From contig JAIMKV010000018.1 of NCBI GenBank assembly GCA_020692205.1, forward strand, positions 594 to 24,593: 24,000 nt of DNA, written 5' to 3'. The notes beneath the pieces were generated by a model. That model made no database searches and had not been told where the DNA came from. It saw nothing but the letters and a program-made list of their open reading frames with translations. This DNA is from Myxosarcina sp. GA_180221_E-2-1-MAG-40_15 (lineage in GTDB: Bacteria > Cyanobacteriota > Cyanobacteriia > Cyanobacteriales > Xenococcaceae). Both the position numbers and the translations under genes were made by a program. Positions 3,518 through 23,854 of the stretch are shown here, piece by piece; positions within the stretch are counted from its first letter, which is position 1; the number at the start of each line of letters is the position of its first letter.

Positions 3518-3764
3518 AATTTTTTTATCCTAACTATTTTTTGTTTTTGTCTCAACTGTAATAGTTTACGTTGTTTTATAATTTTAAAAGTTTTTTAACC
3601 GAAATTAAAGTTAATTACAGCATCTGATTATAATACAAGCTCAATTAGCATTGTTAGTGCATAACAACATAGTTTTCTTTACTTGAGAATGACAGTACAA
3701 TACATAAGCAGGTGTTTACATTACGCAATATTTCTGGCGATTAATTGAGAATTGAGTCACGGAT

Positions 3765-6120: not shown

Positions 6121-6356
6121 AATGTAGTTGAACAACTATCTTGAACTAAGATTAAATATATCTGGATGATTTACTATTAAACAACAGAATTAGAATAATT
6201 ATATTCCCTGCTCTTGATTTAAGTATTTAGATTACTGTTACTTGCCTGTATGCCAATTCACAATTGTCATTAACTGATTTTTGGAGTGATATGAAAGATA
6301 ACCTGTGAGGGAATAATAAATATATCGCTCTACCTTGAAACCGTTAATAAATCGAT

Positions 6357-8444
6357 ATGTGGAAATCATTTAATAGCAAAAACTTTTTATTAATTAGTAT
6401 TAGTCTTGTATCAACATTAATCGGCTTAAAAGCTTTAATTATTGCTCAAACAAATACAAATTTTGCTCAAGGTATTAGACAAGTTTTTCCAGGTAAACCA
6501 ACAATTGCTCTAAATAAATCGAGCGCAAATACCCGCCATAGTTTTTTACTGGCAGCAGATTTAATTGACCGCAAACAGGGTAAAGAAGCTCTAGCAGAAT
6601 TACAGGGTTTAGAGCGAGAATATCCTTTATTAGCTGCTCATGTTTTGTTGTCTCAAGGTAAAGCTTATCAGCTCGAAAAAAACTTTAAAGCAGCAGCAAA
6701 GATTTGGCAGAAATTAGTCATCGAATATCCTACCGCTTCGGCTTCGGCAGAAGCACTATATTTATTAGGTAAGTCTAATTCTGCTTATTGGCAACAGGCG
6801 ATCGCCCAGTTTCCAGCTCATCCCCGCATCCATGAAATTATCCGTCAGCAGTTAAGCTTAAATCCGAACCAACCGCATTTGATGGCAGTCTTGGTTAAAT
6901 ATACTCCTGATGATCCTGGAGTAGACCAAATGAAAGAGCGTCTGGTTGAAGAATATGCCAGCCAGTTGACTCCTGAAGAGTGGGAGGCGATCGCCGATAG
7001 TTATTGGTTAAAATGGGACTACGTCGAGGCAGGCAAAGCCTACGCTAAAGCTCCTATTACTTCTCAAAACCTTTACCGTGCAGGCAGGGGATATCATCTA
7101 GGCAACGATCAAACCACTGCTAAACAATATTATCTTCAGTTAATTCAGCAATATCCTCATGCTGATGATACAGGCTGGGGTTTACGCCGTCTAGCTACCT
7201 TAGTCAATAAAACAGAAGCAGTGACTTATCTAGATCGGGCAATTAAGCAATTTCCTGCACAAGCACCAGAAGCCCTGGTTGAAAAAGCACAATTTCTTGA
7301 AGCACTCAATAGTTTTAAGTCCGCTGCTAATGCCCGACAAACTTTATTAACCGATTATAAACACTCTGAAGCAGCAGCTAACTATCGCTGGGACATTGCT
7401 AGTCAGAAAGCTGAAGCGGGAGATTTAATTACCGCCTGGCAATGGGCGCAACCGATTGTAGTTAATAATCCTCATAGTTTAATAGCACCCAAGGCTGGTT
7501 TTTGGATTGCTAAATGGGCCGAAAAGCTCAATCGTCCCCAAGATGCTAATACCGCTTATAAATCAGTCTTGACTCGTTTTCCCCGCTCATATTATGCTTG
7601 GCGTTCGGCAGTAGCTTTAGGATGGAATGTAGGAAACTTTACCACAGTACGCCATAAAGATCCTCAAGTAGTTAAAACGAGTAAAATAACTCCTCCAGGA
7701 GGCTCGCAAACCTTCCAAGAATTATACAAATTAGGGCTAGAACCACAAGCCTGGGCGCAATTTCAAACTGAAATTAGCGATCGCACCGAATTAACGATTG
7801 CCGAAGATTTTACTAAAGGCTTATTGAAACTCTATCAAGGTCAGAATCTGCGGGGCATCAATCACATCTGGTATTTACAAGATAGAGATTCCCCTGAAGA
7901 TAAGCAACAATGGCAGCAACTGCGTCAAACACCAGAATATTGGCAGGCTTTATATCCGTTTCCCTATGAAGACACCATTCTTAAATGGTCGAAACAGCGA
8001 CAGCTTAACCCATTATTAGTTACTTCTTTAATCCGTCAAGAATCACGGTTTGAACCTGAAATTGAGTCTTCTGCGGGGGCTTTGGGCTTAATGCAGGTAA
8101 TGCCTCCCACTGGTGAAAACGCAGCTAAAAATATTGGCTTATCTAGCTATTCTCTAACCAAGCCTGAAGATAACGTCAATATTGGCACTTATTATCTTGA
8201 CTTTACCCATGAAAAATACGGCAATAACTCGATGCTGGCGGTGGCTAGCTATAATGCAGGGCCAAATGCAGTAGCTGAATGGGTTTCTCGTCATGGGTTA
8301 CAAGACGCAGATGAGTTTGTCGCCAAAATTCCTTATCCAGAAACACAAGGCTATGTAGAGTCAGTATTTGAAAATTATTGGAACTATCTATTGGTTTATA
8401 ACCCCGAAGTAGGAAAATTATTTAAAGACTTACGCACTGAATAG
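6357..8444 (+). CDS. slt: Soluble lytic murein transglycosylase (Slt70-like: helical-repeat N-domain plus C-terminal SLT domain)
   Basis: 695 aa with an N-terminal signal/anchor (LLISISLVSTLIGLKALIIAQ) and a long alpha-helical repeat region. C-terminal SLT motifs: LIRQESRFEP (catalytic Glu), GALGLMQVMP, ASYNAGPNAV. The last ~24 codons are duplicated at 13430-13501 (see repeat features). Confidence 0.85.
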   Translation: MWKSFNSKNFLLISISLVSTLIGLKALIIAQTNTNFAQGIRQVFPGKPTIALNKSSANTRHSFLLAADLIDRKQGKEALAELQGLEREYPLLAAHVLLSQGKAYQLEKNFKAAAKIWQKLVIEYPTASASAEALYLLGKSNSAYWQQAIAQFPAHPRIHEIIRQQLSLNPNQPHLMAVLVKYTPDDPGVDQMKERLVEEYASQLTPEEWEAIADSYWLKWDYVEAGKAYAKAPITSQNLYRAGRGYHLGNDQTTAKQYYLQLIQQYPHADDTGWGLRRLATLVNKTEAVTYLDRAIKQFPAQAPEALVEKAQFLEALNSFKSAANARQTLLTDYKHSEAAANYRWDIASQKAEAGDLITAWQWAQPIVVNNPHSLIAPKAGFWIAKWAEKLNRPQDANTAYKSVLTRFPRSYYAWRSAVALGWNVGNFTTVRHKDPQVVKTSKITPPGGSQTFQELYKLGLEPQAWAQFQTEISDRTELTIAEDFTKGLLKLYQGQNLRGINHIWYLQDRDSPEDKQQWQQLRQTPEYWQALYPFPYEDTILKWSKQRQLNPLLVTSLIRQESRFEPEIESSAGALGLMQVMPPTGENAAKNIGLSSYSLTKPEDNVNIGTYYLDFTHEKYGNNSMLAVASYNAGPNAVAEWVSRHGLQDADEFVAKIPYPETQGYVESVFENYWNYLLVYNPEVGKLFKDLRTE
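8373..8425 (+). repeat. Direct repeat copy 1 (left boundary of the insertion; 3' end of slt)
   Basis: AATTATTGGAACTATCTATTGGTTTATAACCCCGAAGTAGGAAAATTATTTAA aligns by hand to 13430-13482 with 4 mismatches in 53 nt and no gap. It encodes NYWNYLLVYNPEVGKLFK. Confidence 0.85.
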
Positions 8445-8688
8445 TTAGTTGTTAGTTGTTAACCAAATTACTCTGCAATGGGTAATTTTTTTTCTTTTTA
8501 ACTCTAAATATAACAGTTTAATGTGGTTAATTGCCTTGAAAATATTAGCTTCTGCAAGCACATCAACGAAGATAAAACATCATCGCACTTCAATAAATAT
8601 AGAAACTTCTAAATTTTAAGCTAATATCAATCAATTTTTTCAATTAGTTGGGAACTATATAAATAGACATCTAGAGAAAAAGCGAATA

Positions 8689-9033
8689 ATGAAATTTTTT
8701 GAGCCATCTATAGAGCAGCTAGTAACAGAAATTATAGCTGTTAATCATGCTTGGAAAGAAGCAAAGAGTTTATTTAATCTCCCTGATACCCCTTTGGCTA
8801 ATTCTCTAAGAGATTTAAAAGCGCGTTTACAGGTAAGACTTTTGCGTAAGTATGCACCAGAGAACGTTTACTTAATGATAGATACCAACGTAAATACAGA
8901 CTATGACGAACTACTTTATGGTCTACAACTGGTGACATCAGTAAACGGTAGGCGAGATGCTGCACATATGCCGATTAGGGTTGCTAAAGAAAACTTATCT
9001 GCACAAGAATTAGAGCAATTTATTCAAAGCTAA
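8689..9033 (+). CDS. Hypothetical 114-aa protein, first gene of the island operon
   Basis: Intact ORF ending 22 nt before the next gene, whose RBS (AAGGAAG) lies in the gap. No TM segment and no motif I recognise. It is predicted soluble, and the sequence looks mostly helical. Confidence 0.55.
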   Translation: MKFFEPSIEQLVTEIIAVNHAWKEAKSLFNLPDTPLANSLRDLKARLQVRLLRKYAPENVYLMIDTNVNTDYDELLYGLQLVTSVNGRRDAAHMPIRVAKENLSAQELEQFIQS

Positions 9034-9055
9034 TTTTGAAAGGAAGTAGTAAATA

Positions 9056-11182
9056 ATGATTAATAATATAGTTAATGTTATATTTTGTTTGACTGTTGTT
9101 GGAATGGCAATTTGGATTGGGATCAAGGAACGAAAATTTTCAAGTGATTATCAAAATAAAGATTTTGTCGTAGTTAAGAACTCTATCAAAGAGTTAACAG
9201 AATACAAACGAGAACCAAGAAATAATTTTATACAAGTTCAAAAAGAATCGACTGAAATTATCAGATGGCTTGCTCAACATCTCAAAGGAGAATCCAGGTC
9301 ATTAGCTTTCAAGCCAGAACAAGATAAAAATGGCGATTTTATTTTACTTTCCTACCCATCTATTCTAGGAAAACCCGTACCTCGAAGTCCTGTTAGCTTT
9401 GCTCCTGCTTTATTAACCGCAATTGGTATTCTAGGAACTTTTACTGGTATCTTCTTGGGTTTACAAGGAGTAGATTTAGGGAATCTTAGCGAAACTCAAG
9501 CACTGATAGAAGCTAGTCAAAAGCTATTAGCAGGAATGAAAACAGCTTTTGTGACTTCTTTATTTGGGATGGGTGCTGCTATCTTTTTTATTTTATATTT
9601 ATCTTGGAAAGAGAGAAAACGTACTAAAATTCGCAATGATTGGCGTAAAAAACTAAGTAACATTGCTTTTGTAGAAAGTCCTAATCATCTTTTATCTCGT
9701 TTAGATAATGAAGGAAATATAAAAGTTGCTAAAACACTTCAGAGTGTAGCTGATAATTTATCTGGTTTTAATGCTGATGTAATTGCAAATGCCATTAAAA
9801 ATGCGATCGCGCCAATAGTTTCAGAAATAAAATATTTAGAAAAAATTGATCGACTGATAGATAATACATCAAGTTTATCTGATTTAACTCCTAAGGCGAT
9901 CGCCTCTGCAACAACGGATAAATTTACACAATTAATTAATCCCATTTCTCAAGAAATAAAACAACTTCGAGAACTTCAAGAAAGTCAGGGACAAACTGTC
10001 GAAACTTTAGTTAAACAACTGCGTAACGAGTTGATTGAACCTGTTGTTATTAGATTAGATCAAAGCGCAGCATTAACCAAAGAAGCGTCCGCAGCAGTAA
10101 CAGATTTGAAAAATGAATTAGGCGGTATTAGCCAAAATTTAGCAGGTGCGGTAGAAACCATTCAAAGTTTCCAACAAGATACTCTAATTCGTCTTCAAGA
10201 ATTTGCTGCTAACTTACAATCTATTCTCGGTCAATTCCGTACCGATACTCAAGGAGTAATGGAACAAGTTGCTGTAGAAATTCAGCAAGCAGTCAACCAA
10301 AGCATTACAGGAATGGAAGCACAACGTACTGCCTTTGAAGCTAGCGCAAGTCAAGCATCCCAAACTTTTAGAGGAATTAGAGAAGACTTACAAGCAGCAC
10401 TTGATACCCAAGCCGAACAGCAAAAACAAATGTTACATGATGTTCAAACCTCTACGGAAAGCGTTCTAGTTAAAGCTAACGAAGCCTTCTTGAATCAGTC
10501 TAATACTCTAGTAACAGTAGGAAAAGAAGCTTCGGGATTAATGAGCGAAGCTAAAGCTAATTTTCTTGGCACATTAAGCAATATTGACGGAATGCTGCAA
10601 AATACTCGTCTTACAGTCCAACAGGAATTAGAACAATTCCGTCTTGACTATCAAGCAGCGTTGCAAGATTTCTTTACCCAGCAGAATAATCTACTGAACG
10701 ACACCTTAGGAGAACAAAGAGAAGGGTTAGCAGGGGTTGTAGTTAATCTACAGCAAACATTTAGTGAAGAAGCAACACAACGAAAAGAAATGACTACACA
10801 AGTAGACCAGAGTTTAGACCGAATCGGGGAAACCGTCAAAACTGTAAATACTTTAGCTAGTGCAATGGGAATGACTTCTAGTGAACGTTTGGGTCAATTA
10901 CAAGAATTAGCACGAACTATTGGTAATGAAGCACATCGTGTAGAACATAGTTATCAAAGTATGACTGAACAGTTTAATAAAGCTCTATTAGATGGCAACG
11001 AAAAGCTAAATGACTACCTCAAACAAGCTGATGAAACTTATACCAGAAGTATACAAGATGCAGATAAAGCTGCCGCTGAAGTCTGTACCAAGTTAAACGA
11101 AACTTCTCACGGTTTGATGAATACAGCAGAGTTTTTAGTATCTGCTGCCACAGAACTAAAGAATAGTAATGGAGGTAAGTAA
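9056..11182 (+). CDS. zorA: ZorA-like protein: MotA/ExbB-type proton-channel domain plus ~525-aa helical tail
   Basis: Three hydrophobic helices (aa ~5-23, ~113-136, ~160-183). The last two carry MotA/ExbB-like motifs (LLTAIGILGTFTGIFLGL; MKTAFVTSLFGMGAAIFF). Residues ~184-708 are Q/E/A/T/L-rich with no further TM, consistent with a long coiled-coil. Size and architecture match ZorA as I know it from type I Zorya, and a MotB/OmpA-like gene follows 2 nt later. Confidence 0.72.
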   Translation: MINNIVNVIFCLTVVGMAIWIGIKERKFSSDYQNKDFVVVKNSIKELTEYKREPRNNFIQVQKESTEIIRWLAQHLKGESRSLAFKPEQDKNGDFILLSYPSILGKPVPRSPVSFAPALLTAIGILGTFTGIFLGLQGVDLGNLSETQALIEASQKLLAGMKTAFVTSLFGMGAAIFFILYLSWKERKRTKIRNDWRKKLSNIAFVESPNHLLSRLDNEGNIKVAKTLQSVADNLSGFNADVIANAIKNAIAPIVSEIKYLEKIDRLIDNTSSLSDLTPKAIASATTDKFTQLINPISQEIKQLRELQESQGQTVETLVKQLRNELIEPVVIRLDQSAALTKEASAAVTDLKNELGGISQNLAGAVETIQSFQQDTLIRLQEFAANLQSILGQFRTDTQGVMEQVAVEIQQAVNQSITGMEAQRTAFEASASQASQTFRGIREDLQAALDTQAEQQKQMLHDVQTSTESVLVKANEAFLNQSNTLVTVGKEASGLMSEAKANFLGTLSNIDGMLQNTRLTVQQELEQFRLDYQAALQDFFTQQNNLLNDTLGEQREGLAGVVVNLQQTFSEEATQRKEMTTQVDQSLDRIGETVKTVNTLASAMGMTSSERLGQLQELARTIGNEAHRVEHSYQSMTEQFNKALLDGNEKLNDYLKQADETYTRSIQDADKAAAEVCTKLNETSHGLMNTAEFLVSAATELKNSNGGK

Positions 11183-11184
11183 TT

Positions 11185-11886
11185 ATGAACTCTTTTGAAC
11201 AATTTGAACCAGATACAGAAGCAGAAGAAGATAACTCAGGTATTTGGTTATCTATCAGTGATTTGATGTCAGGGTTATTAATGTTTTTCGCTTTGTTATT
11301 TATTGTCGTACAAGTTCAGCTTCAGCAGGAAATAGTTAAAGCGCAAAGACTAGAAAGAGAACTAGAAACTTATAAAAGAGTAATCGATCAATTACCTTTA
11401 AGAATAATTAGTGCAATCGAAGGTAAATTCGGAGAAGGTATTCTGGAAATCGATCCAAAAACAGGAGATGTAAAAATAGGCGATCGCATTCTTTTTGATG
11501 AGGGAAGTGCAGAATTAAAACCCGCAGGAAAACAGTTTCTTAAAAGATTTATTCCTATTTATAGTGATGTAATTTTCTCCGATAAACTTTTTGAAAGTCA
11601 GATCACTCGTGTAGTGATAGAAGGTCACACTAGTTCTAAAGGTTCTGATAAAGCTAACATGGAATTAAGTCTCAGACGTGCTTTATCGGTATCTGATTAT
11701 ATTTTTTCTGAACAACTTAATTTCAAAACAAAACAAAAATTTCAGCAAAAAATTCTGGCATCTGGAAGAGGCGAAATAGATGCAGACAAGAGTAAAGATA
11801 ATTCAAGCGATCGCAAAGTTGTTTTCCGTTTTCAATTCCGACAAGTAAACTTTGATGATTTAGAGAAAGATATTGTCAAACCATAA
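11185..11886 (+). CDS. zorB: ZorB-like protein: MotB-type TM plug with conserved Asp plus OmpA-like peptidoglycan-binding domain
   Basis: A single N-terminal TM, GIWLSISDLMSGLLMFFALLFIVV, has Asp26 (nt 11260-11262) at the position of the MotB/ExbD/TolR proton-relay Asp. C-terminal OmpA_C pattern: ILFDEGSAELKPAG...VVIEGHTSSKGSDKANMELSLRRALSVSDYI...ASGRGE...DRKVVFRF. A GGAGG RBS lies inside the zorA 3' end, suggesting translational coupling. Confidence 0.8.
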   Translation: MNSFEQFEPDTEAEEDNSGIWLSISDLMSGLLMFFALLFIVVQVQLQQEIVKAQRLERELETYKRVIDQLPLRIISAIEGKFGEGILEIDPKTGDVKIGDRILFDEGSAELKPAGKQFLKRFIPIYSDVIFSDKLFESQITRVVIEGHTSSKGSDKANMELSLRRALSVSDYIFSEQLNFKTKQKFQQKILASGRGEIDADKSKDNSSDRKVVFRFQFRQVNFDDLEKDIVKP

Positions 11887-11894
11887 CTATAAAA

Positions 11895-13385
11895 ATGAAT
11901 ATTCAATTTCGTAAAATACATTTACCTCCACTTCCAAAAGTTAATGCTCATGCTCTAACTAAGTTAGTAGGAAACGACAATAATGGCTTAATGACTCCAG
12001 TTTTACCTATTGGCGTATCTAAAAGCCAAATTGTTTCTCGTTCTAATTTAGATGAAATTATTGAAGATATTGAAAATGGCAACAATAAGAAGATCACACC
12101 TTTAGAATGGATTCACTGTCTTTATAACAAAGATAAATGGGATGCCAAAAACCCAAACAAAAGTATATCTACATCGGAAGCAATTTGGAAAGCAGCAGAA
12201 CAAAATACTTGGTTAAAACAAAGATTATTTTGGAACTTAGTTCTTAATTACGATGGTCAAAAAGTTTTGGCTTCGTCTTTAGTAAAAACTTATTCTGTGT
12301 TTTCATCTCAAGATGCGAGAGACAGAATGAGATTATTGATAATTAAATCTTTTCAATTAGAAAAGCCAATGATTGGGTTAATCAAACTATGTTGTAGGCA
12401 ATTATTGACTCCGCGTGAACTATTTTTTCAACATCAGCTTCCTAGCAAAATTCTTATTATTAAAGAATGCTTAACTCTTGTTGTTTCTCAATTTTCTAAA
12501 ATTACTTCTCCCAATCAGCAACAAGTTGATTGGCTGTTAAGATGCCTTGAAGAAATGAGTCAAGAACAACAAATTAAAGCCGTAGAATCTTTGCTTACTT
12601 TAGTCGATCCTCAAGTTGGTACAAAACACTCAGAAATAATTGATTGGTTGCGTCAATATTATGCTTCTTCTAACTCTAACTCTCGTTGGAATGAACTGTC
12701 TTCAGAAGCTAAAGCAGCAATGCGAAAATGGCTTGGTGCAGTCAGTTATCAAGATTTCCAAAAATTAGCAAATCTTGTTTTGGATCGAGTACGCTTAGAA
12801 GACCACGAACATAGACGATTAAAAAGCCGTAGTGGATTTTGGTCAAACTATAGCGATCGCTTTGAACGTATTCGTATATTATTACCTAAAAGTTCAGTCA
12901 ATATTTTAGGCAATTACCTTAATCATCAAGATGTCAGTATCTTACTAAATGATGGCAGCGATTCGACTGAAGTATGCATCTTTGATTTTGGAAACTGGTT
13001 CTTAGTAGAGTTTTTTAGAGGTAATGGTAGCGAAACTCGGATTTTCAGAAAAGATACTGAAAGTGAACAAAAACTATTTCACTCTCAATTATCAATTAAA
13101 AAACTTCGTTGCTTAGATTCAAATAATGGAATTCACGATCATGAATTTTGCTGGCAATATTTTTGTGAACAATTGTTGAGAACTAAAAATATTTTTCCTA
13201 ATAAAAATATTCAGTACTTTAAAGGCTTATCTGATGAACATGGCAAATACAACCGACAAACAGGATTACCAAAACCATCATCAAACGACTTATCAAAGCG
13301 AAAGTATAAAGTAGAAAGATGGAAGCAAACAATGGTTCAGTTAGAACAAGAAGCAAAACAGTATTGCGACTACAATCAAACATGA
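11895..13385 (+). CDS. zorC: ZorC-like protein (tentative EH-signature domain)
   Basis: 496-aa soluble ORF starting 8 nt after zorB, the position ZorC occupies in type I Zorya. The C-terminal half has features I associate with the EH_Signature family: RSGFWSNYSDRFERIRILL, FGNWFLVEFFRG (Glu372) and GIHDHEFCWQYF (His414/His416) about 42-44 residues later. This rests on memory of the family, not an HMM score. Confidence 0.5.
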   Translation: MNIQFRKIHLPPLPKVNAHALTKLVGNDNNGLMTPVLPIGVSKSQIVSRSNLDEIIEDIENGNNKKITPLEWIHCLYNKDKWDAKNPNKSISTSEAIWKAAEQNTWLKQRLFWNLVLNYDGQKVLASSLVKTYSVFSSQDARDRMRLLIIKSFQLEKPMIGLIKLCCRQLLTPRELFFQHQLPSKILIIKECLTLVVSQFSKITSPNQQQVDWLLRCLEEMSQEQQIKAVESLLTLVDPQVGTKHSEIIDWLRQYYASSNSNSRWNELSSEAKAAMRKWLGAVSYQDFQKLANLVLDRVRLEDHEHRRLKSRSGFWSNYSDRFERIRILLPKSSVNILGNYLNHQDVSILLNDGSDSTEVCIFDFGNWFLVEFFRGNGSETRIFRKDTESEQKLFHSQLSIKKLRCLDSNNGIHDHEFCWQYFCEQLLRTKNIFPNKNIQYFKGLSDEHGKYNRQTGLPKPSSNDLSKRKYKVERWKQTMVQLEQEAKQYCDYNQT

Positions 13386-13420
13386 TCTTGACTTTTTTGA
13401 AGAATCTTAATCGAACTTAG

Positions 13421-13501
13421 ATATTGAAAAATTATTGGAACTATATGCTGGTTTATAACCCTGAAGTAGGAAAATTATTTAAGCAGATCAGTGAACAGTG
13501 A
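13421..13501 (+). pseudogene. Displaced 3'-terminal remnant of the slt gene
   Basis: The frame opens right after a TAG (13418-13420) and reads ILKNYWNYMLVYNPEVGKLFKQISEQ*. Codon for codon it parallels the slt C-terminus VFENYWNYLLVYNPEVGKLFKDLRTE*. Both have the same number of codons to the stop, but the last six codons differ. Confidence 0.7.
13430..13482 (+). repeat. Direct repeat copy 2 (right boundary of the insertion)
   Basis: AATTATTGGAACTATATGCTGGTTTATAACCCTGAAGTAGGAAAATTATTTAA matches copy 1 (8373-8425) at 49 of 53 nt. Confidence 0.85.
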
Positions 13502-13529
13502 ACGCAAATAACTTTCTCTAGCTTAAATA

Positions 13530-15230
13530 ATGGTCAAAATCATCAAACAGACAGCATCAATGCAGACGAGAGATCGCGTTAGATTAGATGCAGATATCTA
13601 TCGTCCTGACACGGATGAGAAATTACCGATTCTGTTGATGCGCCAGCCTTACGGTAGAGAAATTGCCTCGACGGTGGTTTATGCTCATCCTCGTTGGTAT
13701 GCAGCCCAAGGTTACATAGTGGTGATTCAAGATGTGCGGGGTAGAGGAACATCTCAAGGTGAGTTCGATCTGTTTACCCACGAGGTTACTGATGGTTTAG
13801 ATACGATCGACTGGGTGTCTCAATTACCTGGCAGTACAGGAAAAGTAGGAATGTACGGTTTTTCTTATCAGGGAATGACACAGCTATATACCGCAGCGCA
13901 TCAGCCAGAATGTTTAAAGGCGATCGCTCCTGCTATGGTAGCCTACGATCTTTATACTGATTGGGCTTATGAAAATGGAGCATTTTGCCTGTTTGCCAAT
14001 TTAGCCTGGGCAATTCAACTAGCGGGGGAAACAGCACGTCTTCAAGGAGATGAAGCAGCTTATTTAGAATTACGCGCTGCTTCTCGTAATTTGCCGTTAA
14101 ATGGCTCGATTCCTGCCAATCCCGAACTGATGAGAAAACTAGCTCCCAACTCTTTTTATCACCAATGGTTAAATAACCCTAATCCCAATACGGAATATTG
14201 GCAACAGCGATCGCCAAAATATTTTTTAGCCAACGTAGATCTTCCCATGCTGCACATTGGCGGATGGTTCGACCCTTATTTACGGGGAACATTAAATCTC
14301 TATCAGGCAATGGTAGCTCAAACTAAGCAACCCCAACATCTTTTAGTTGGACCTTGGGCGCATCTCCCTTGGGGTAGAAAACTGGGTGCAGTTGACTATG
14401 GTATTGAAGCGCAAAATCCCATTGATGATATTCAAATTCGCTGGTTCAATCATTGGCTTAAAGATCAAGATACAGGACTACTGCAAGAAGCACCGCTGTC
14501 TCTATTTGAAATGGGCAGTAACCAATGGCGAGAATTTGATAGTTTACCTGACAATCAGCAAATTTATTACTTAGCTAGTGATGGACAAGCCAGTATTAGA
14601 GAAGATAGCGGCATGCTTTGGAAGTATGAAGCGACGCTCAATATTTCTCCTCATGAGTTATTAGATACCAATCTTAGTCAAACGATTATAGAATTTGAGC
14701 CTAATACAGATATTTTAGTTCATGATCCTTGGCGACCAGTACCCGCACTAGGAGGTCATTCTGCCTATCCTAGCGGCTCGTTTGACCGTTCTGCTTTAGA
14801 CTGTCGTTCAGATGTCTTAACCTATACTTCTGCTCCTTTAGAATCAGATTTACACCTCGCAGGAGCGATAACGTTAGAAATCTATTGCACTGCGGAAAAT
14901 TCTAGTTTCGATCTTTGTGCTGTTCTGTCTACGGTTAACTCAGACAATGCCGTGTTTAATTTTACTCAGGGTTATATTCGCGTAGTTACCTCGGATTTAA
15001 ATACCAACCTAATTAAAATTCCTTTGCAGGCTACCTGTATGTGTATTGCAGCAGGGAAGAGCTTGCGTCTTAGTCTAAGTGCCGCCTGCTTTCCTGCCTA
15101 TCCCGTCAATCCTGGTAATGGCAAACTAGCTTACGAATCACGTTTGCTCGATGAGTCGGTAATCACCTTATTAATCCATTCAGGAGACAACCACCCATCA
15201 AGATTAATGATGAACTTCTCGACTAAATGA
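13530..15230 (+). CDS. CocE/NonD-family alpha/beta hydrolase (X-Pro dipeptidyl-peptidase S15-like)
   Basis: 566 aa. Motifs: PILLMRQPYGR, VVIQDVRGRGTSQGEF, nucleophile elbow GMYGFSYQG, plus a C-terminal beta-rich domain typical of the family. Confidence 0.82.
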   Translation: MVKIIKQTASMQTRDRVRLDADIYRPDTDEKLPILLMRQPYGREIASTVVYAHPRWYAAQGYIVVIQDVRGRGTSQGEFDLFTHEVTDGLDTIDWVSQLPGSTGKVGMYGFSYQGMTQLYTAAHQPECLKAIAPAMVAYDLYTDWAYENGAFCLFANLAWAIQLAGETARLQGDEAAYLELRAASRNLPLNGSIPANPELMRKLAPNSFYHQWLNNPNPNTEYWQQRSPKYFLANVDLPMLHIGGWFDPYLRGTLNLYQAMVAQTKQPQHLLVGPWAHLPWGRKLGAVDYGIEAQNPIDDIQIRWFNHWLKDQDTGLLQEAPLSLFEMGSNQWREFDSLPDNQQIYYLASDGQASIREDSGMLWKYEATLNISPHELLDTNLSQTIIEFEPNTDILVHDPWRPVPALGGHSAYPSGSFDRSALDCRSDVLTYTSAPLESDLHLAGAITLEIYCTAENSSFDLCAVLSTVNSDNAVFNFTQGYIRVVTSDLNTNLIKIPLQATCMCIAAGKSLRLSLSAACFPAYPVNPGNGKLAYESRLLDESVITLLIHSGDNHPSRLMMNFSTK

Positions 15231-15355
15231 AAACGGAAAAGATAACTTATCTGAAATAAGATCTCCCTAGCAGTCAAACCTACAAAAATTAATACTTACT
15301 TGCTAGCCAAGACATTCTGCATATTTGATTCAAAAGTAATGATGAAAAATATGAA

Positions 15356-15586: not shown

Positions 15587-15846
15587 GTTTTTCTCCTAGT
15601 GAAAACTTAAGTTGAAATTATTTTACTGAAGCAAATTATCTAGTTGCTCTTAGTACACGGTTAATTTAACCAAACAGATGAAAATTTTCTGATAAGGCAT
15701 CATTAAAATCAATCAAACTTAATTAAATCTTTATGTTGCACTAGTAGATTTGACAAGAGTTTGATAAATTTACTGAAAACGCTCCGTAGAACGTCTTCTT
15801 TTTATTTAAAATATAATTAAATATTAAGAAATATAAATTTAGTTAT

Positions 15847-22975: not shown

Positions 22976-23854
22976 CTAATTTAACTGATGTCCAGTTAGC
23001 TCCACAAAAATATCTTCCAAATTAGAATCACGGATCATCACCCCACTTTTATCGTTCAAAGATTCTAAATAAGTGTTAGCTGCTTTTGTGTCTGGAAAAA
23101 ACTGACTTTCTAATTGATCACCTGTTTGCTGAAGCGCGATCGCTTTGCCATATTGAGTACGAAACTGCTCTAGCGTTCCTAATCCAATCAGTTTACCAGT
23201 ATCCATAATACCGATGCGTCCTGGTTTGCCGTTACCCGAACGTTCGCACAGGAATTCTACCTCATCCATATAGTGACTGGTAATTATAATAGTCATTCCT
23301 TTACGGTTTAAATCCTGAATAATTGACCACAGGCGACGGCGAGTTTGAGGATCTAAACCCACTGTTGGTTCGTCTAAAAACAAAATATTTGGTTCATGAA
23401 GTAACGCCCTGGCAATTTGTAAACGACGTTTCATCCCACCAGATAAAGTTTTGACTAAAGAATTACGGCGATCGCTCAAGCCGACATATTCTAGCCAAAG
23501 ATTGATTCGCTTTTGTCTTTCGGGGTTAGCAATGTGGTGCATTCTGCCGTGGAATTCTAAATTTTCCCAAACAGATAATTCTCCATCAACACTAATTTGT
23601 TGCAAAACAACGCCAATACTTCTTTTGACCAAATTGCGATGGCGCGATACGTCATACCCTGCAACCTCAATTTTGCCTTTATTTGGCTCGCTCAGCGTGA
23701 TTAACATCCGAATTGTAGTTGATTTTCCCGCTCCATTTGGGCCTAAAAGACCAAATATTTCTCCTTGTTCTATAGTCAAAGAAAGATTGTCAACCACCAA
23801 GTTTTTATTGTATGTTTTGCCAACATTTGATAATGTTACCGCTGCATTGTTCAT
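22976..23854 (-). CDS. ABC transporter ATP-binding protein (ABC-2/DrrA-like)
   Basis: 292 aa. Walker A GLLGPNGAGKST, signature LSGGMKRRLQIARAL, Walker B ILFLDEPTVGLD, H-loop TSHYM. No permease gene is adjacent within the window. Confidence 0.92.
   Translation of the reverse strand: MNNAAVTLSNVGKTYNKNLVVDNLSLTIEQGEIFGLLGPNGAGKSTTIRMLITLSEPNKGKIEVAGYDVSRHRNLVKRSIGVVLQQISVDGELSVWENLEFHGRMHHIANPERQKRINLWLEYVGLSDRRNSLVKTLSGGMKRRLQIARALLHEPNILFLDEPTVGLDPQTRRRLWSIIQDLNRKGMTIIITSHYMDEVEFLCERSGNGKPGRIGIMDTGKLIGLGTLEQFRTQYGKAIALQQTGDQLESQFFPDTKAANTYLESLNDKSGVMIRDSNLEDIFVELTGHQLN

What the first reader, a model, noticed from the sequence alone, without database searches (positions are those of the whole stretch)
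8373..13482. Island inserted at the 3' end of the lytic transglycosylase gene, bracketed by a duplicated gene end
Seen in sequence: 53 nt at 8373-8425 (the last codons of slt) recur at 13430-13482 with 4 mismatches and no gap. Both copies continue in frame for exactly six more, unrelated codons to a stop (KDLRTE* versus KQISEQ*). The second copy has a stop immediately upstream, so it is an orphaned C-terminal fragment.

Established knowledge: integrative elements that target the 3' end of a gene carry a surrogate 3' end. They leave the original end as a displaced remnant, producing att-like direct repeats.

Inference: the ~5.06 kb between the copies was acquired by site-specific or short-homology recombination at the slt 3' end. 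One of the two C-termini came in with the island. No integrase is present, so the recombinase acted in trans or has been lost.
Basis: partly seen in the sequence, partly recalled or inferred. Interest (0 to 1): 0.7.

Follow-up and report, generated by a model that had tools for sequence, protein, structure and literature searches.

The report
Zorya defence cassette inserted behind slt
A 5-kb anti-phage gene cassette (a Zorya system that lacks its usual nuclease gene) was spliced into the last codons of a cell-wall enzyme gene of a cyanobacterium and left a 61-base duplicate of the gene's end; a related genome shows the same site unoccupied, so the insertion is real, but it is a familiar kind of event.

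Summary
The repeat is real: 8365-8425 and 13422-13482 match at 55 of 61 bases (53-nt core, 4 mismatches). It is by far the longest repeat in the window.

A fully syntenic relative (L090/L091) has slt followed after 22 nt by the CocE/NonD gene. One 61-nt stretch of that relative aligns to both window copies. So 5,057 bp were inserted.

The cargo is orf114-zorA-zorB-zorC, a type I-like Zorya cassette with no zorD and no integrase or transposase.

The live copy's repeat is native and its tail KDLRTE* is imported. The orphan's repeat is imported (95% identical to a Waterburya slt end) and only its tail KQISEQ* is native. The two imported halves join into one foreign slt end. That is the mark of a reciprocal crossover, placed at 8406-8425.

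The slt|cocE junction is a hotspot:
- L089 carries other cargo there.
- L092 carries Zorya remnants plus sbtAB.
- Decayed slt-end stubs precede cocE in distant lineages.

A lineage 93.5% identical to the window shares the left junction, so the insertion is not recent.

Verdict: observation confirmed and interpretation supported, except that nothing points to an integrase. This is a new member of a known kind.

The parts
6357..8444 (+). slt, a soluble lytic transglycosylase gene (695 aa; TPR repeats plus an SLT domain). It is native up to 8425. Its last six codons and stop are imported.
   Evidence: Pfam SLT E 4.8e-33. It is 89.9% nt identical to slt of L090, and the alignment ends at 8425.
8365..8425 (+). 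Left repeat copy (attL-like). It is the resident 'L-type' sequence.
   Evidence: Identical to the empty-site relative L090 at every base of 8355-8425 except 8420. L173/L174 are 100% identical over 8365-8425.
8406..8425 (+). Inferred crossover interval, GAAGTAGGAAAATTATTTAA. It lies between the last L/M-type difference (8405) and the end of homology.
   Evidence: Mismatch map. The interval is one of two blocks that recur as 17-30-nt perfect runs against slt of other genera.
8426..8444 (+). Imported surrogate tail of slt (KDLRTE*).
   Evidence: It does not align to the L090 tail. It resembles the Waterburya-type tails KNLPTE* (L009, L010) and ENLPTE* (L013).
8445..8632 (+). 188-nt spacer that arrived with the island. 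It has no counterpart at other copies of the cassette.
   Evidence: blastn finds no match in L017, L088 or L085. It is 93.1% identical in L173. No promoter or terminator consensus was found.
8633..8688 (+). Conserved upstream end of the cassette, with the motif TTGGGAACTATATAAATA (probable promoter).
   Evidence: Homology to L017 and L088 starts at 8633 in both, and to L085 at 8649.
8689..9033 (+). orf114, a conserved 114-aa protein that always precedes zorA in this cassette. Its function is unknown.
   Evidence: 94 homologues, those with a source name being cyanobacterial, none with a Pfam domain. No Pfam, NCBIfam or PADLOC hit. AF2 model pLDDT 90 with no PDB Foldseek match at E <= 1e-3.
9056..11182 (+). 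zorA (708 aa, MotA/ExbB-like with a long tail).
   Evidence: PADLOC ZorA1 PDLC00597, E 9.5e-269, full length. PDB 8vvn_C (MotA/TolQ/ExbB proton channel domain-containing protein; PMC11890865 Table 1 lists 8VVN as Shewanella sp. ANA-3 type I ZorAB), E 3.3e-8.
11185..11886 (+). zorB (233 aa, MotB/OmpA-like).
   Evidence: PADLOC ZorB1 PDLC00609, E 2.6e-79. Pfam OmpA.
11895..13385 (+). zorC (496 aa, EH-signature domain).
   Evidence: PADLOC ZorC1 PDLC00618, E 1e-197, profile positions 1-494 of 495. Pfam PF15611.
13386..13421 (+). 36 nt between the zorC stop and the orphan. It is the outer junction of the imported DNA and ends in TATTGAAAA, a near-match to TATTTGAAAA of slt.
   Evidence: Sequence. 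No significant similarity to the left flanks of slt stubs in other lineages.
13422..13482 (+). Right repeat copy (attR-like orphan). It is the imported 'M-type' slt end.
   Evidence: 59 of 62 bases match slt of L009. Only 13462 differs from L009 within 13428-13482. It differs from native L090 at 13445, 13447, 13448 and 13462, plus the A/G position (13477, equivalent to 8420) where both window copies differ from L090.
13483..13501 (+). Displaced native slt tail (KQISEQ*).
   Evidence: It is colinear with the L090 tail KQINEQ* and runs on into the shared spacer and cocE. It is also homologous to the L001 tail KQINKQ*.
13530..15230 (+). CocE/NonD family hydrolase gene, the native right flank.
   Evidence: TIGR00976 E 3.5e-124. 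It follows slt directly in L090/L091 and, after 427 nt, in L005.

Best explanation
The window comes from a Pleurocapsales-type cyanobacterium whose ancestral arrangement was slt followed directly by cocE. A 5.06-kb segment now separates them. It carries orf114-zorA-zorB-zorC, a Zorya type I-like anti-phage cassette, together with the last ~80 nt of a foreign slt gene.

How it got there (inferred). The foreign slt end recombined reciprocally with the resident slt end. The exchange lay within the 20 identical bases at 8406-8425. The incoming DNA was either circular (Campbell-type integration) or in an 'ends-in' configuration. Alternatively, the whole pre-formed architecture was copied in by homologous exchange from a donor that already had it.

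Result (shown). The resident gene keeps its own sequence up to 8425 and gains a foreign six-codon tail. The foreign 61-nt slt fragment sits at the far end of the island, fused to the displaced native tail in front of cocE. Both genes stay intact because the joint falls where the conserved Slt sequence ends and its variable C-terminal tail begins.

What drove it (inferred). No recombinase of its own is involved. The anchor is the near-invariant nucleotide sequence of the slt 3' end. The outer junction, next to zorC, looks like a microhomology join.

Wider picture (shown). The slt|cocE junction is a recombination hotspot where alternative alleles occur: empty, Zorya, other cargo, and a gutted Zorya. 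The L089/L090 comparison shows crossovers in both flanking genes, which indicates that alleles are swapped by exchange in those flanks (inferred).

The cassette presumably defends against phage as Zorya does: a ZorAB membrane motor senses infection and ZorC binds DNA. The usual nuclease ZorD is not encoded beside it.
For: Insertion:
- L090/L091 is an empty site with more than 20 kb of synteny. The blastn blocks are window 6199-8425 to L090 7729-9959 and window 13422-15231 to L090 9899-11702, so 61 nt of L090 are used twice.
- slt-cocE adjacency also occurs in the more distant L005.

Polarity:
- attL equals L090 up to 8425.
- The attR core equals the L009 slt end except at 13462.
- The attR tail equals the L090 tail.
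- The attL tail is of the Waterburya type. The two imported halves together read ...NYWNYMLVYNPEVGKLFKDLRTE*, one coherent foreign slt end.
- The L-type is shared by L090, L091, L173, L174 and the L092 stub. All relatives outside that clade are M-type.

Cargo:
- PADLOC gives ZorA1 E 9.5e-269, ZorB1 E 2.6e-79 and ZorC1 E 1e-197.
- The same four-gene cassette sits at unrelated sites in L017, L085, L088, L175, L177, L180 and a Nostoc plasmid.
- GC and GC3 are lower than in the flanks.

No mobility genes in the island or within about 10 kb on either side.

Hotspot and exchange through the flanks:
- L089 differs from its 95%-identical sister L090 only from the last 57-83 nt of slt to the first ~40 nt of cocE.
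- L092 has ZorA and ZorC fragments around sbtAB, joined to an slt stub by a TAT microhomology.
- Decayed slt-end stubs lie upstream of cocE in L119, L094, L095 and L110.

The junction blocks 8364-8387 and 8406-8425 are recurrent perfect-identity runs between genera.
Against: - No circular form, donor genome or excision product was seen, so the single-crossover step is inferred from geometry only.
- A 20-nt identical stretch is near the lower limit for RecA-type exchange.
- Perfect runs of similar length exist elsewhere in slt, so identity alone does not fully explain why the junctions cluster at the gene end.
- Zorya remnants at the same site in L092, together with the window being the outgroup of the four syntenic genomes, allow an older origin in which L090 is a secondary loss.
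- L089's right-hand stub is short and diverged. It does not fit a simple reciprocal product.
- Anti-phage activity of a zorD-less cassette is untested. Type I Zorya needs all four components in E. coli (PMC11946911).
Confidence: 0.72

Rival explanations
1. The segment is a site-specific integrative element. An integrase encoded elsewhere, or since lost, recognised an att site in the slt 3' end. The two repeats are attL and attR, and the element carries a surrogate gene end.
For: Direct repeats bracket the cargo. The target is a gene 3' end that is restored by the element. The empty site exists. The reciprocal attL/attR geometry is exactly what an integrase would produce.
Against: - No integrase, transposase or excisionase lies in the island, the 24-kb window or about 10 kb on either side. 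None lies in the alternative cargos of L089 and L092 either.
- The left ends of the slt stubs differ between lineages: about 80, about 60 and about 32 nt before the stop.
- The left junction of L089 lies in a different block from that of the window.
- The same cassette sits at at least seven other sites with no slt fragment. In the three loci that could be checked on both sides it has no flanking repeat.
- Among 92 ORFs downstream of slt in 30 relatives, no integrase family appears among the recurrent families.
- No relative of the cassette was found in viral contigs.
Confidence: 0.12
2. The island is ancestral to the whole syntenic clade, and the 'empty site' of L090/L091 is secondary. On this reading, recombination between the two repeats deleted the island and produced a hybrid slt end (L-type repeat plus KQ tail). 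The window shows the old state, not a gain.
For: - Zorya remnants occupy the same site in L092.
- cocE four-fold-site distances place the window outside L092, L089 and L090.
- L173/L174, at 93.5% identity, share attL with uniform divergence across the native and island parts.
- slt-end stubs upstream of cocE are old and widespread.
- Deletion between 61-nt repeats would yield exactly the L090 sequence.
Against: - The window's orphan is almost undecayed. It differs from a live Waterburya slt end at 1 base within 13428-13482. By my estimate from the window-to-clade four-fold-site distance of about 0.3, about 8 neutral changes would be expected in it since the clade's root.
- The stub in L092 is L-type, not M-type, so a shared origin needs an extra gene conversion.
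- The ZorC fragment of L092 is less like the window's (81%) than the cassette of unrelated L088 is (91%).
- slt-cocE adjacency without an island also occurs in the distant L005.
Confidence: 0.25
3. The duplication arose in place. Either it is a long target-site duplication made by staggered breaks, or it is a local tandem duplication into which the cassette later landed. Both copies were originally the resident sequence and have since diverged.
For: The two copies are in direct orientation and in the same frame. Six differences in 61 nt are not far from the neutral divergence expected over the age of the insertion.
Against: - Three of the orphan's differences (CTATTG to ATGCTG) reproduce exactly the state of slt in other genera. 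A fourth is synonymous. Random decay would not do this.
- The live tail and the orphan tail are unrelated. Each matches a different natural slt tail type.
- No terminal inverted repeats and no transposase are present.
Confidence: 0.04

Closest known systems
Genomic islands and prophages that integrate into the 3' end of a tRNA, tmRNA or protein gene and carry a surrogate 3' end (tyrosine-integrase elements; Williams 2002, cited from my own knowledge and listed as reference 26 in PMC10250203)
   Same: Insertion into a gene's 3' end. The gene is restored by imported sequence. Direct repeats bracket the cargo. The reciprocal attL/attR composition is the same. An empty site exists in relatives.
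   Different: There is no integrase here or in neighbouring alleles. Junction positions vary between lineages. The outer junction shows microhomology. The cargo cassette also occurs at other sites without any slt fragment.
Core defence hotspots flanked by conserved core genes (cDHS1-2 of Pseudomonas aeruginosa, PMC10250203)
   Same: The site lies between two conserved housekeeping genes. Cargo varies between related genomes and some alleles are empty. GC is lower than in the flanks. There are no obvious mobile-element genes. Transfer by homologous recombination through the flanks was proposed there and is seen here in the L089/L090 comparison.
   Different: The island is very small (5 kb, one system). 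The host is a cyanobacterium. A duplicated gene end marks the joint, which has not been described for cDHS. Not all cargo is recognisably defensive: L089 carries a DUF1232 protein and a pentapeptide-repeat protein, and L092 carries sbtAB.
Type I Zorya (ZorABCD; E. coli EcZorI, PMC11946911; Shewanella ZorAB, PDB 8VVN, PMC11890865)
   Same: Full-length ZorA1, ZorB1 and ZorC1 in the canonical order and orientation, each matching the PADLOC type I profiles over its whole length.
   Different: No zorD lies beside the cassette in any context where the DNA downstream of zorC was held. A conserved 114-aa gene of unknown fold precedes zorA. ZorC gives no sequence-level hit in the PDB.
Campbell-type (single-crossover or 'ends-in') integration and homology-facilitated illegitimate recombination in naturally transformable bacteria (de Vries and Wackernagel 2002; my own knowledge)
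   Same: A short homologous anchor gives a duplication of the anchor on both sides of the insert. The second joint forms at a microhomology.
   Different: The anchor is only 20-61 nt. No circular intermediate or donor was observed. Natural competence of the host is unknown.

Membership tests
Integrase-mediated integrative element targeting a gene 3' end | Site-specific recombinase (integrase) gene in or beside the element | tested here: not met
   Pfam, NCBIfam and PADLOC scans of the four island ORFs and of most of the larger window ORFs, together with the precomputed Pfam list for about 10 kb on either side, show none. None is present in the L089 or L092 cargo either.
Integrase-mediated integrative element targeting a gene 3' end | Direct repeats (attL/attR) flanking the element, with the target gene restored | tested here: met
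   A 61-nt repeat at 90% identity. slt remains a 695-aa intact ORF.
Integrase-mediated integrative element targeting a gene 3' end | Unoccupied attB in related genomes | tested here: met
   In L090/L091 slt is followed after 22 nt by cocE. L090 9899-9959 aligns to both copies.
Integrase-mediated integrative element targeting a gene 3' end | The same fixed crossover position in independent insertions | tested here: not met
   The window crossover lies at 8406-8425. The L089 left junction lies just after the 8387 equivalent. Stub left ends lie about 80, 60 and 32 nt before the stop.
Integrase-mediated integrative element targeting a gene 3' end | Excision to a circle or regeneration of the empty site | not testable with these tools
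   This needs read mapping or PCR on the source samples (SRR11600161, SRR11600162).
Type I Zorya | ZorA (MotA/ExbB-like with a long C-terminal tail) | tested here: met
   PDLC00597, E 9.5e-269, residues 6-705 against profile positions 3-680 of 683. PDB 8vvn_C, E 3.3e-8.
Type I Zorya | ZorB (MotB/OmpA-like peptidoglycan binder) | tested here: met
   PDLC00609, E 2.6e-79. Pfam OmpA, E 3.1e-14.
Type I Zorya | ZorC (EH-signature protein) | tested here: met
   PDLC00618, E 1e-197. PF15611, E 1e-25.
Type I Zorya | ZorD (SNF2-type helicase/nuclease) in the operon | tested here: not met
   zorC is followed after 36 nt by the slt stub and cocE, and there is no ZorD hit in the window. ZorD is also absent next to the cassette in L084, L085, L088, L180 and L176. 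A copy elsewhere in the genome cannot be excluded. L085 has an SNF2 helicase 5 kb away that hits ZorD1 (E 1e-34) and DpdE (E 7e-33) about equally.
Core-gene-flanked defence hotspot | Conserved flanking core genes with variable content between them in related genomes | tested here: met
   The same flanks occur in the window, L089 and L090/L091. The contents are Zorya, a DUF1232 protein plus a pentapeptide-repeat protein, and nothing. L092 has Zorya remnants plus sbtAB next to cocE.
Core-gene-flanked defence hotspot | Cargo enriched in defence systems across many genomes | tested here: inconclusive
   Only four informative alleles were found, and two involve Zorya. The L089 cargo has no PADLOC hit.
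Transposon or insertion sequence | Transposase, terminal inverted repeats and a short identical target-site duplication | tested here: not met
   No transposase. No inverted repeats at the island ends. The duplication is 61 nt long and not identical.

The most novel reading that the evidence does not exclude
orf114-ZorA-ZorB-ZorC is a distinct cyanobacterial Zorya subtype that works without ZorD. In this reading the conserved 114-aa protein, which has a confidently predicted fold with no solved counterpart, replaces or recruits the effector. The cassette spreads as a bare promoter-plus-four-gene module by recombination at ultra-conserved gene ends rather than on a mobile element.
Probability: 0.3. 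Interest if true: 0.65.

Novelty: new member of a known kind. Interest (0 to 1): 0.45.

Why it matters
It gives a clean, base-resolved example of how a defence system can enter a chromosome without any mobility gene. A foreign copy of a highly conserved gene end serves as the recombination anchor. Both neighbouring genes survive because the joint falls at the boundary between conserved sequence and a free-to-vary tail.

It extends the 'core defence hotspot' idea to cyanobacteria.

It also points to a compact Zorya variant (small protein plus ZorABC, no ZorD) that recurs across Pleurocapsales, Xenococcaceae and a Nostoc plasmid. That variant could be used to test whether Zorya can act without its known nuclease.

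Tried and rejected
- Chimeric slt upstream of the repeat. Sliding identity against 16 relatives showed no switch point. The relatives then available were too distant.
- Flanking duplications at other copies of the cassette (L017, L084, L085, L088). None was found, so the repeat is not a property of the cassette.
- A second slt-end copy near slt in 80 other species. None was found.
- The orphan as the cocE promoter. No sigma-70-like site lies on the + strand and no terminator lies after zorC. The idea was dropped to speculation.
- A shared left flank between the window's orphan and the stubs of L094, L119 and L095. Local alignments were no better than shuffles.
- A right-hand crossover inside cocE in the window. 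The identity profile against L090, L089 and L092 shows nothing unusual beyond the first ~90 nt.
- A phage or plasmid vehicle. There was no viral-contig relative. The only plasmid hit is a 40%-identical copy on a Nostoc plasmid.
- tRNA, tmRNA or Rfam elements as integration targets. None was found.
- Tetranucleotide and HIP1 signatures. They do not set the island apart, so the donor was probably another cyanobacterium, or the island has been resident for a long time.


Full report
**1. The observation**

8373-8425 and 13430-13482 differ at 4 of 53 bases with no gap. Ungapped extension gives 8365-8425 against 13422-13482, 61 nt at 90% identity and 5,057 nt apart. It is the longest repeat in the window. 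Other repeat families are 22-41 nt at 60-77% identity. blastn-short gives E = 4.6e-18, against chance matches of 9-14 nt.

The left copy closes a 695-aa ORF (6357-8444) with TPR repeats and an SLT domain. The right copy is an in-frame stub with a stop just upstream. It ends KQISEQ*, where the live gene ends KDLRTE*.

**2. What lies between the copies**

The interval holds four co-oriented genes:
- orf114 (8689-9033), with no family hit;
- zorA (9056-11182), PADLOC ZorA1 E 9.5e-269;
- zorB (11185-11886), ZorB1 E 2.6e-79;
- zorC (11895-13385), ZorC1 E 1e-197, EH signature.

This is a type I-like Zorya anti-phage cassette. The fourth type I gene, zorD, is missing: zorC is followed after 36 nt by the slt stub. 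There is no integrase, transposase, tRNA or Rfam element.

The flanks are housekeeping genes: glpK, ycf66, accC, slt, then cocE, two FAD oxidoreductases, PDH E2 and hisS. HIP1 sites mark a cyanobacterium.

The island has GC 0.341 against 0.412 in the flanks, and GC3 0.21-0.27 against 0.31-0.35. HIP1 density and tetranucleotide usage are the same as in the flanks.

**3. The empty site**

The source is GCA_017973915.1. All seven contigs that carry these exact proteins have the same arrangement.

A scan of one genome per species with Slt found relatives at 80% identity or less, with poor synteny. Only L005 has slt followed by cocE.

Searching with CocE found closer genomes at 88% amino-acid identity. 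L090 (GCA_036703275.1) and L091 share the whole gene order of the window. In them slt ends 22 nt before cocE. In blastn, window 6199-8425 aligns to L090 7729-9959 and window 13422-15231 aligns to L090 9899-11702. So 61 nt of L090 are used twice. The 5,057 bp are therefore an insertion relative to this relative.

**4. Which half is native**

The slt of L090 ends ...ENYWNYLLVYNPEVGKLFKQINEQ*.
- The live copy in the window equals L090 at every base of 8355-8425 except 8420, then departs.
- The orphan differs from L090 at 13445, 13447, 13448 and 13462, plus the same A/G position as the live copy. From 13483 it follows the L090 tail, the spacer and cocE.
- The orphan's variants (ATGCTG for CTATTG) are the state found in slt of other genera. 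It matches slt of Waterburya L009 at 59 of 62 bases.
- The live tail KDLRTE* resembles the Waterburya tails KNLPTE* and ENLPTE*. The orphan tail resembles KQINEQ* and KQINKQ* of L090 and L001.

So the resident gene is native to 8425 with an imported tail. The orphan is imported up to 13482 with the native tail. Joined, the two imported pieces read ...NYWNYMLVYNPEVGKLFKDLRTE*, one coherent foreign slt end.

This reciprocal composition is what a single crossover between the chromosome and a foreign slt end attached to the cargo would give. The crossover falls after the last diagnostic difference (8405), within GAAGTAGGAAAATTATTTAA (8406-8425).

The geometry is shown by the sequences. The circular or ends-in intermediate is inferred.

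**5. A hotspot, not a single event**

L089 is 94-95% identical to L090. It has the same flanks but carries a DUF1232 protein and a pentapeptide-repeat protein between slt and cocE. L089 and L090 are about 95% identical everywhere except two stretches: the last 83 nt of slt (72%) and the first 100 nt after the insert, which includes the start of cocE (73%). That allele was therefore exchanged by crossovers in both flanking genes. The left one lies just after the block ...GAAAATTATTGGAACTAT.

L092 has, upstream of cocE, the following in order: a ZorA fragment, sbtA, sbtB, a ZorC fragment, and then a native-type (L-type) slt stub. The stub is joined to the ZorC fragment at a TAT microhomology.

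Decayed slt-end stubs also precede cocE in L119, L094, L095 and L110, where slt is not nearby.

No second slt-end copy occurs near slt in 80 other species.

The two junction blocks, 8364-8387 and 8406-8425, recur as 17-30-nt perfect runs between genera. Runs of similar length exist elsewhere in slt.

Among 92 ORFs downstream of slt in 30 relatives, no integrase family recurs.

**6. Age**

L173 and L174 are 93.5% identical to window 7347-9037. They share the left junction, the tail (KDLRTK*), the 188-nt spacer and orf114. Identity is even, 92.5-96%, across the native and imported parts. The insertion therefore predates that split.

Four-fold-site distances in cocE place the window outside L092, L089 and L090. 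Together with the Zorya remnants in L092, this allows an older origin with secondary loss in L090. Against that, three points stand: the near-intact state of the orphan, the L-type stub in L092, and the weaker resemblance of L092's ZorC fragment to the window's (81%, against 91% for unrelated L088). I rate this timing variant at about 0.25.

**7. The cassette**

The four-gene module occurs at unrelated sites:
- L017, after a histidine phosphatase gene;
- L085, before metG;
- L088;
- L175, after a glycosyltransferase gene;
- L177 and L178, after dnaG;
- L180, before a response-regulator gene;
- a Nostoc plasmid, beside a DISARM/Dpd-like cluster.

Conserved sequence begins 56 nt upstream of orf114, at a TTGGGAACTATATAAATA motif, and ends at the zorC stop. 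There are no terminal repeats. ZorD is never adjacent where the downstream DNA could be read. One SNF2 helicase 5 kb away in L085 is ambiguous between ZorD and DpdE.

orf114 has 94 homologues; those with a source name are cyanobacterial. It folds confidently (pLDDT 90) into helix-helix-three strands-two short helices. It has no PDB match at E <= 1e-3.

In E. coli type I Zorya, all four components act together and ZorD is the nuclease (PMC11946911).

**8. Comparison and verdict**

The structure works like an island that targets a gene 3' end and supplies a surrogate end. It fails the membership test for an integrase-borne element: no recombinase, variable junctions, and microhomology at the outer joint. 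It fits core-gene-flanked defence hotspots, for which transfer by homologous recombination through the flanks has been proposed (PMC10250203). By contrast, most E. coli hotspots are occupied by recognisable mobile elements (PMC10121019).

It is a new member of a known kind and of moderate interest. The ZorD-less cassette is the most promising lead.

Noticed in passing
window 8689-13385; also L085, L088, L180, L176 (Nostoc sp. HK-01 plasmid2 AP018320.1): The Zorya cassette is always small ORF-ZorA-ZorB-ZorC with no adjacent ZorD. This holds from Pleurocapsales to Nostoc, where ZorC is 40% and orf114 53% identical. It may be an undescribed Zorya subtype. I found no paper describing it.
   Followed up: partly
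window 8689-9033: orf114 has 94 homologues (those with a source name are cyanobacterial) and no Pfam domain. Its AF2 model is confident (pLDDT 90, pTM 0.82). No Foldseek PDB match reaches E <= 1e-3.
   Followed up: partly
L092 146-2607: A bicarbonate transporter pair (sbtA and the P-II-like sbtB) sits between a ZorA fragment and a ZorC fragment, next to an slt stub. A defence cassette was gutted and its place taken by metabolic genes.
   Followed up: partly
window 8370-8379 and 8413-8422 (also 13470-13479): The 61-nt repeat contains an internal 10-nt direct repeat, GAAAATTATT, near each of its ends. The orphan's left boundary and the crossover interval each coincide with one copy. The short stub in L089 starts at the second copy.
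   Followed up: no
L119 ~896-954, L094 ~1090-1160, L095 ~9900-9970, L110 ~3690-3720: Decayed slt 3'-end stubs persist directly upstream of cocE in lineages where slt is not nearby. In L119 and L094 an ATG (in L095 a GTG) opens a 16-18-codon frame that ends just before cocE. The same holds for the window's orphan (ATG at 13445). A role as a leader or uORF is possible but untested.
   Followed up: no
window 15756-15788 versus L090 12193-12761: A DUF2780 gene (129 aa) lies between cocE and the first FAD oxidoreductase in L089, L090 and L091. It is absent from the window. This is a second presence/absence difference close to the island.
   Followed up: no
window 22976-23854: The ABC-transporter ATPase gene is intact in the window (292 aa). 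In L089 and L090 only a 45-58-aa fragment remains at the same place.
   Followed up: no
L089 1446-2386: L089 carries an extra partial copy of accC (residues 196-448) and of the yggT-like gene, just beside the full accC. This is a local segmental duplication that the window and L090 lack.
   Followed up: no
L177 4044-6086: In one metagenome contig the orf114 homologue, which sits downstream of dnaG, is followed by a DDE transposase gene where zorA would be expected. An IS appears to have disrupted that copy of the cassette.
   Followed up: no
L001-L038, the 4.5 kb downstream of slt: The genes downstream of slt are almost never the same in 30 related genomes: 146 Pfam families among 92 ORFs, none present in more than 3. 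The slt 3' side is a general synteny breakpoint in this order.
   Followed up: partly
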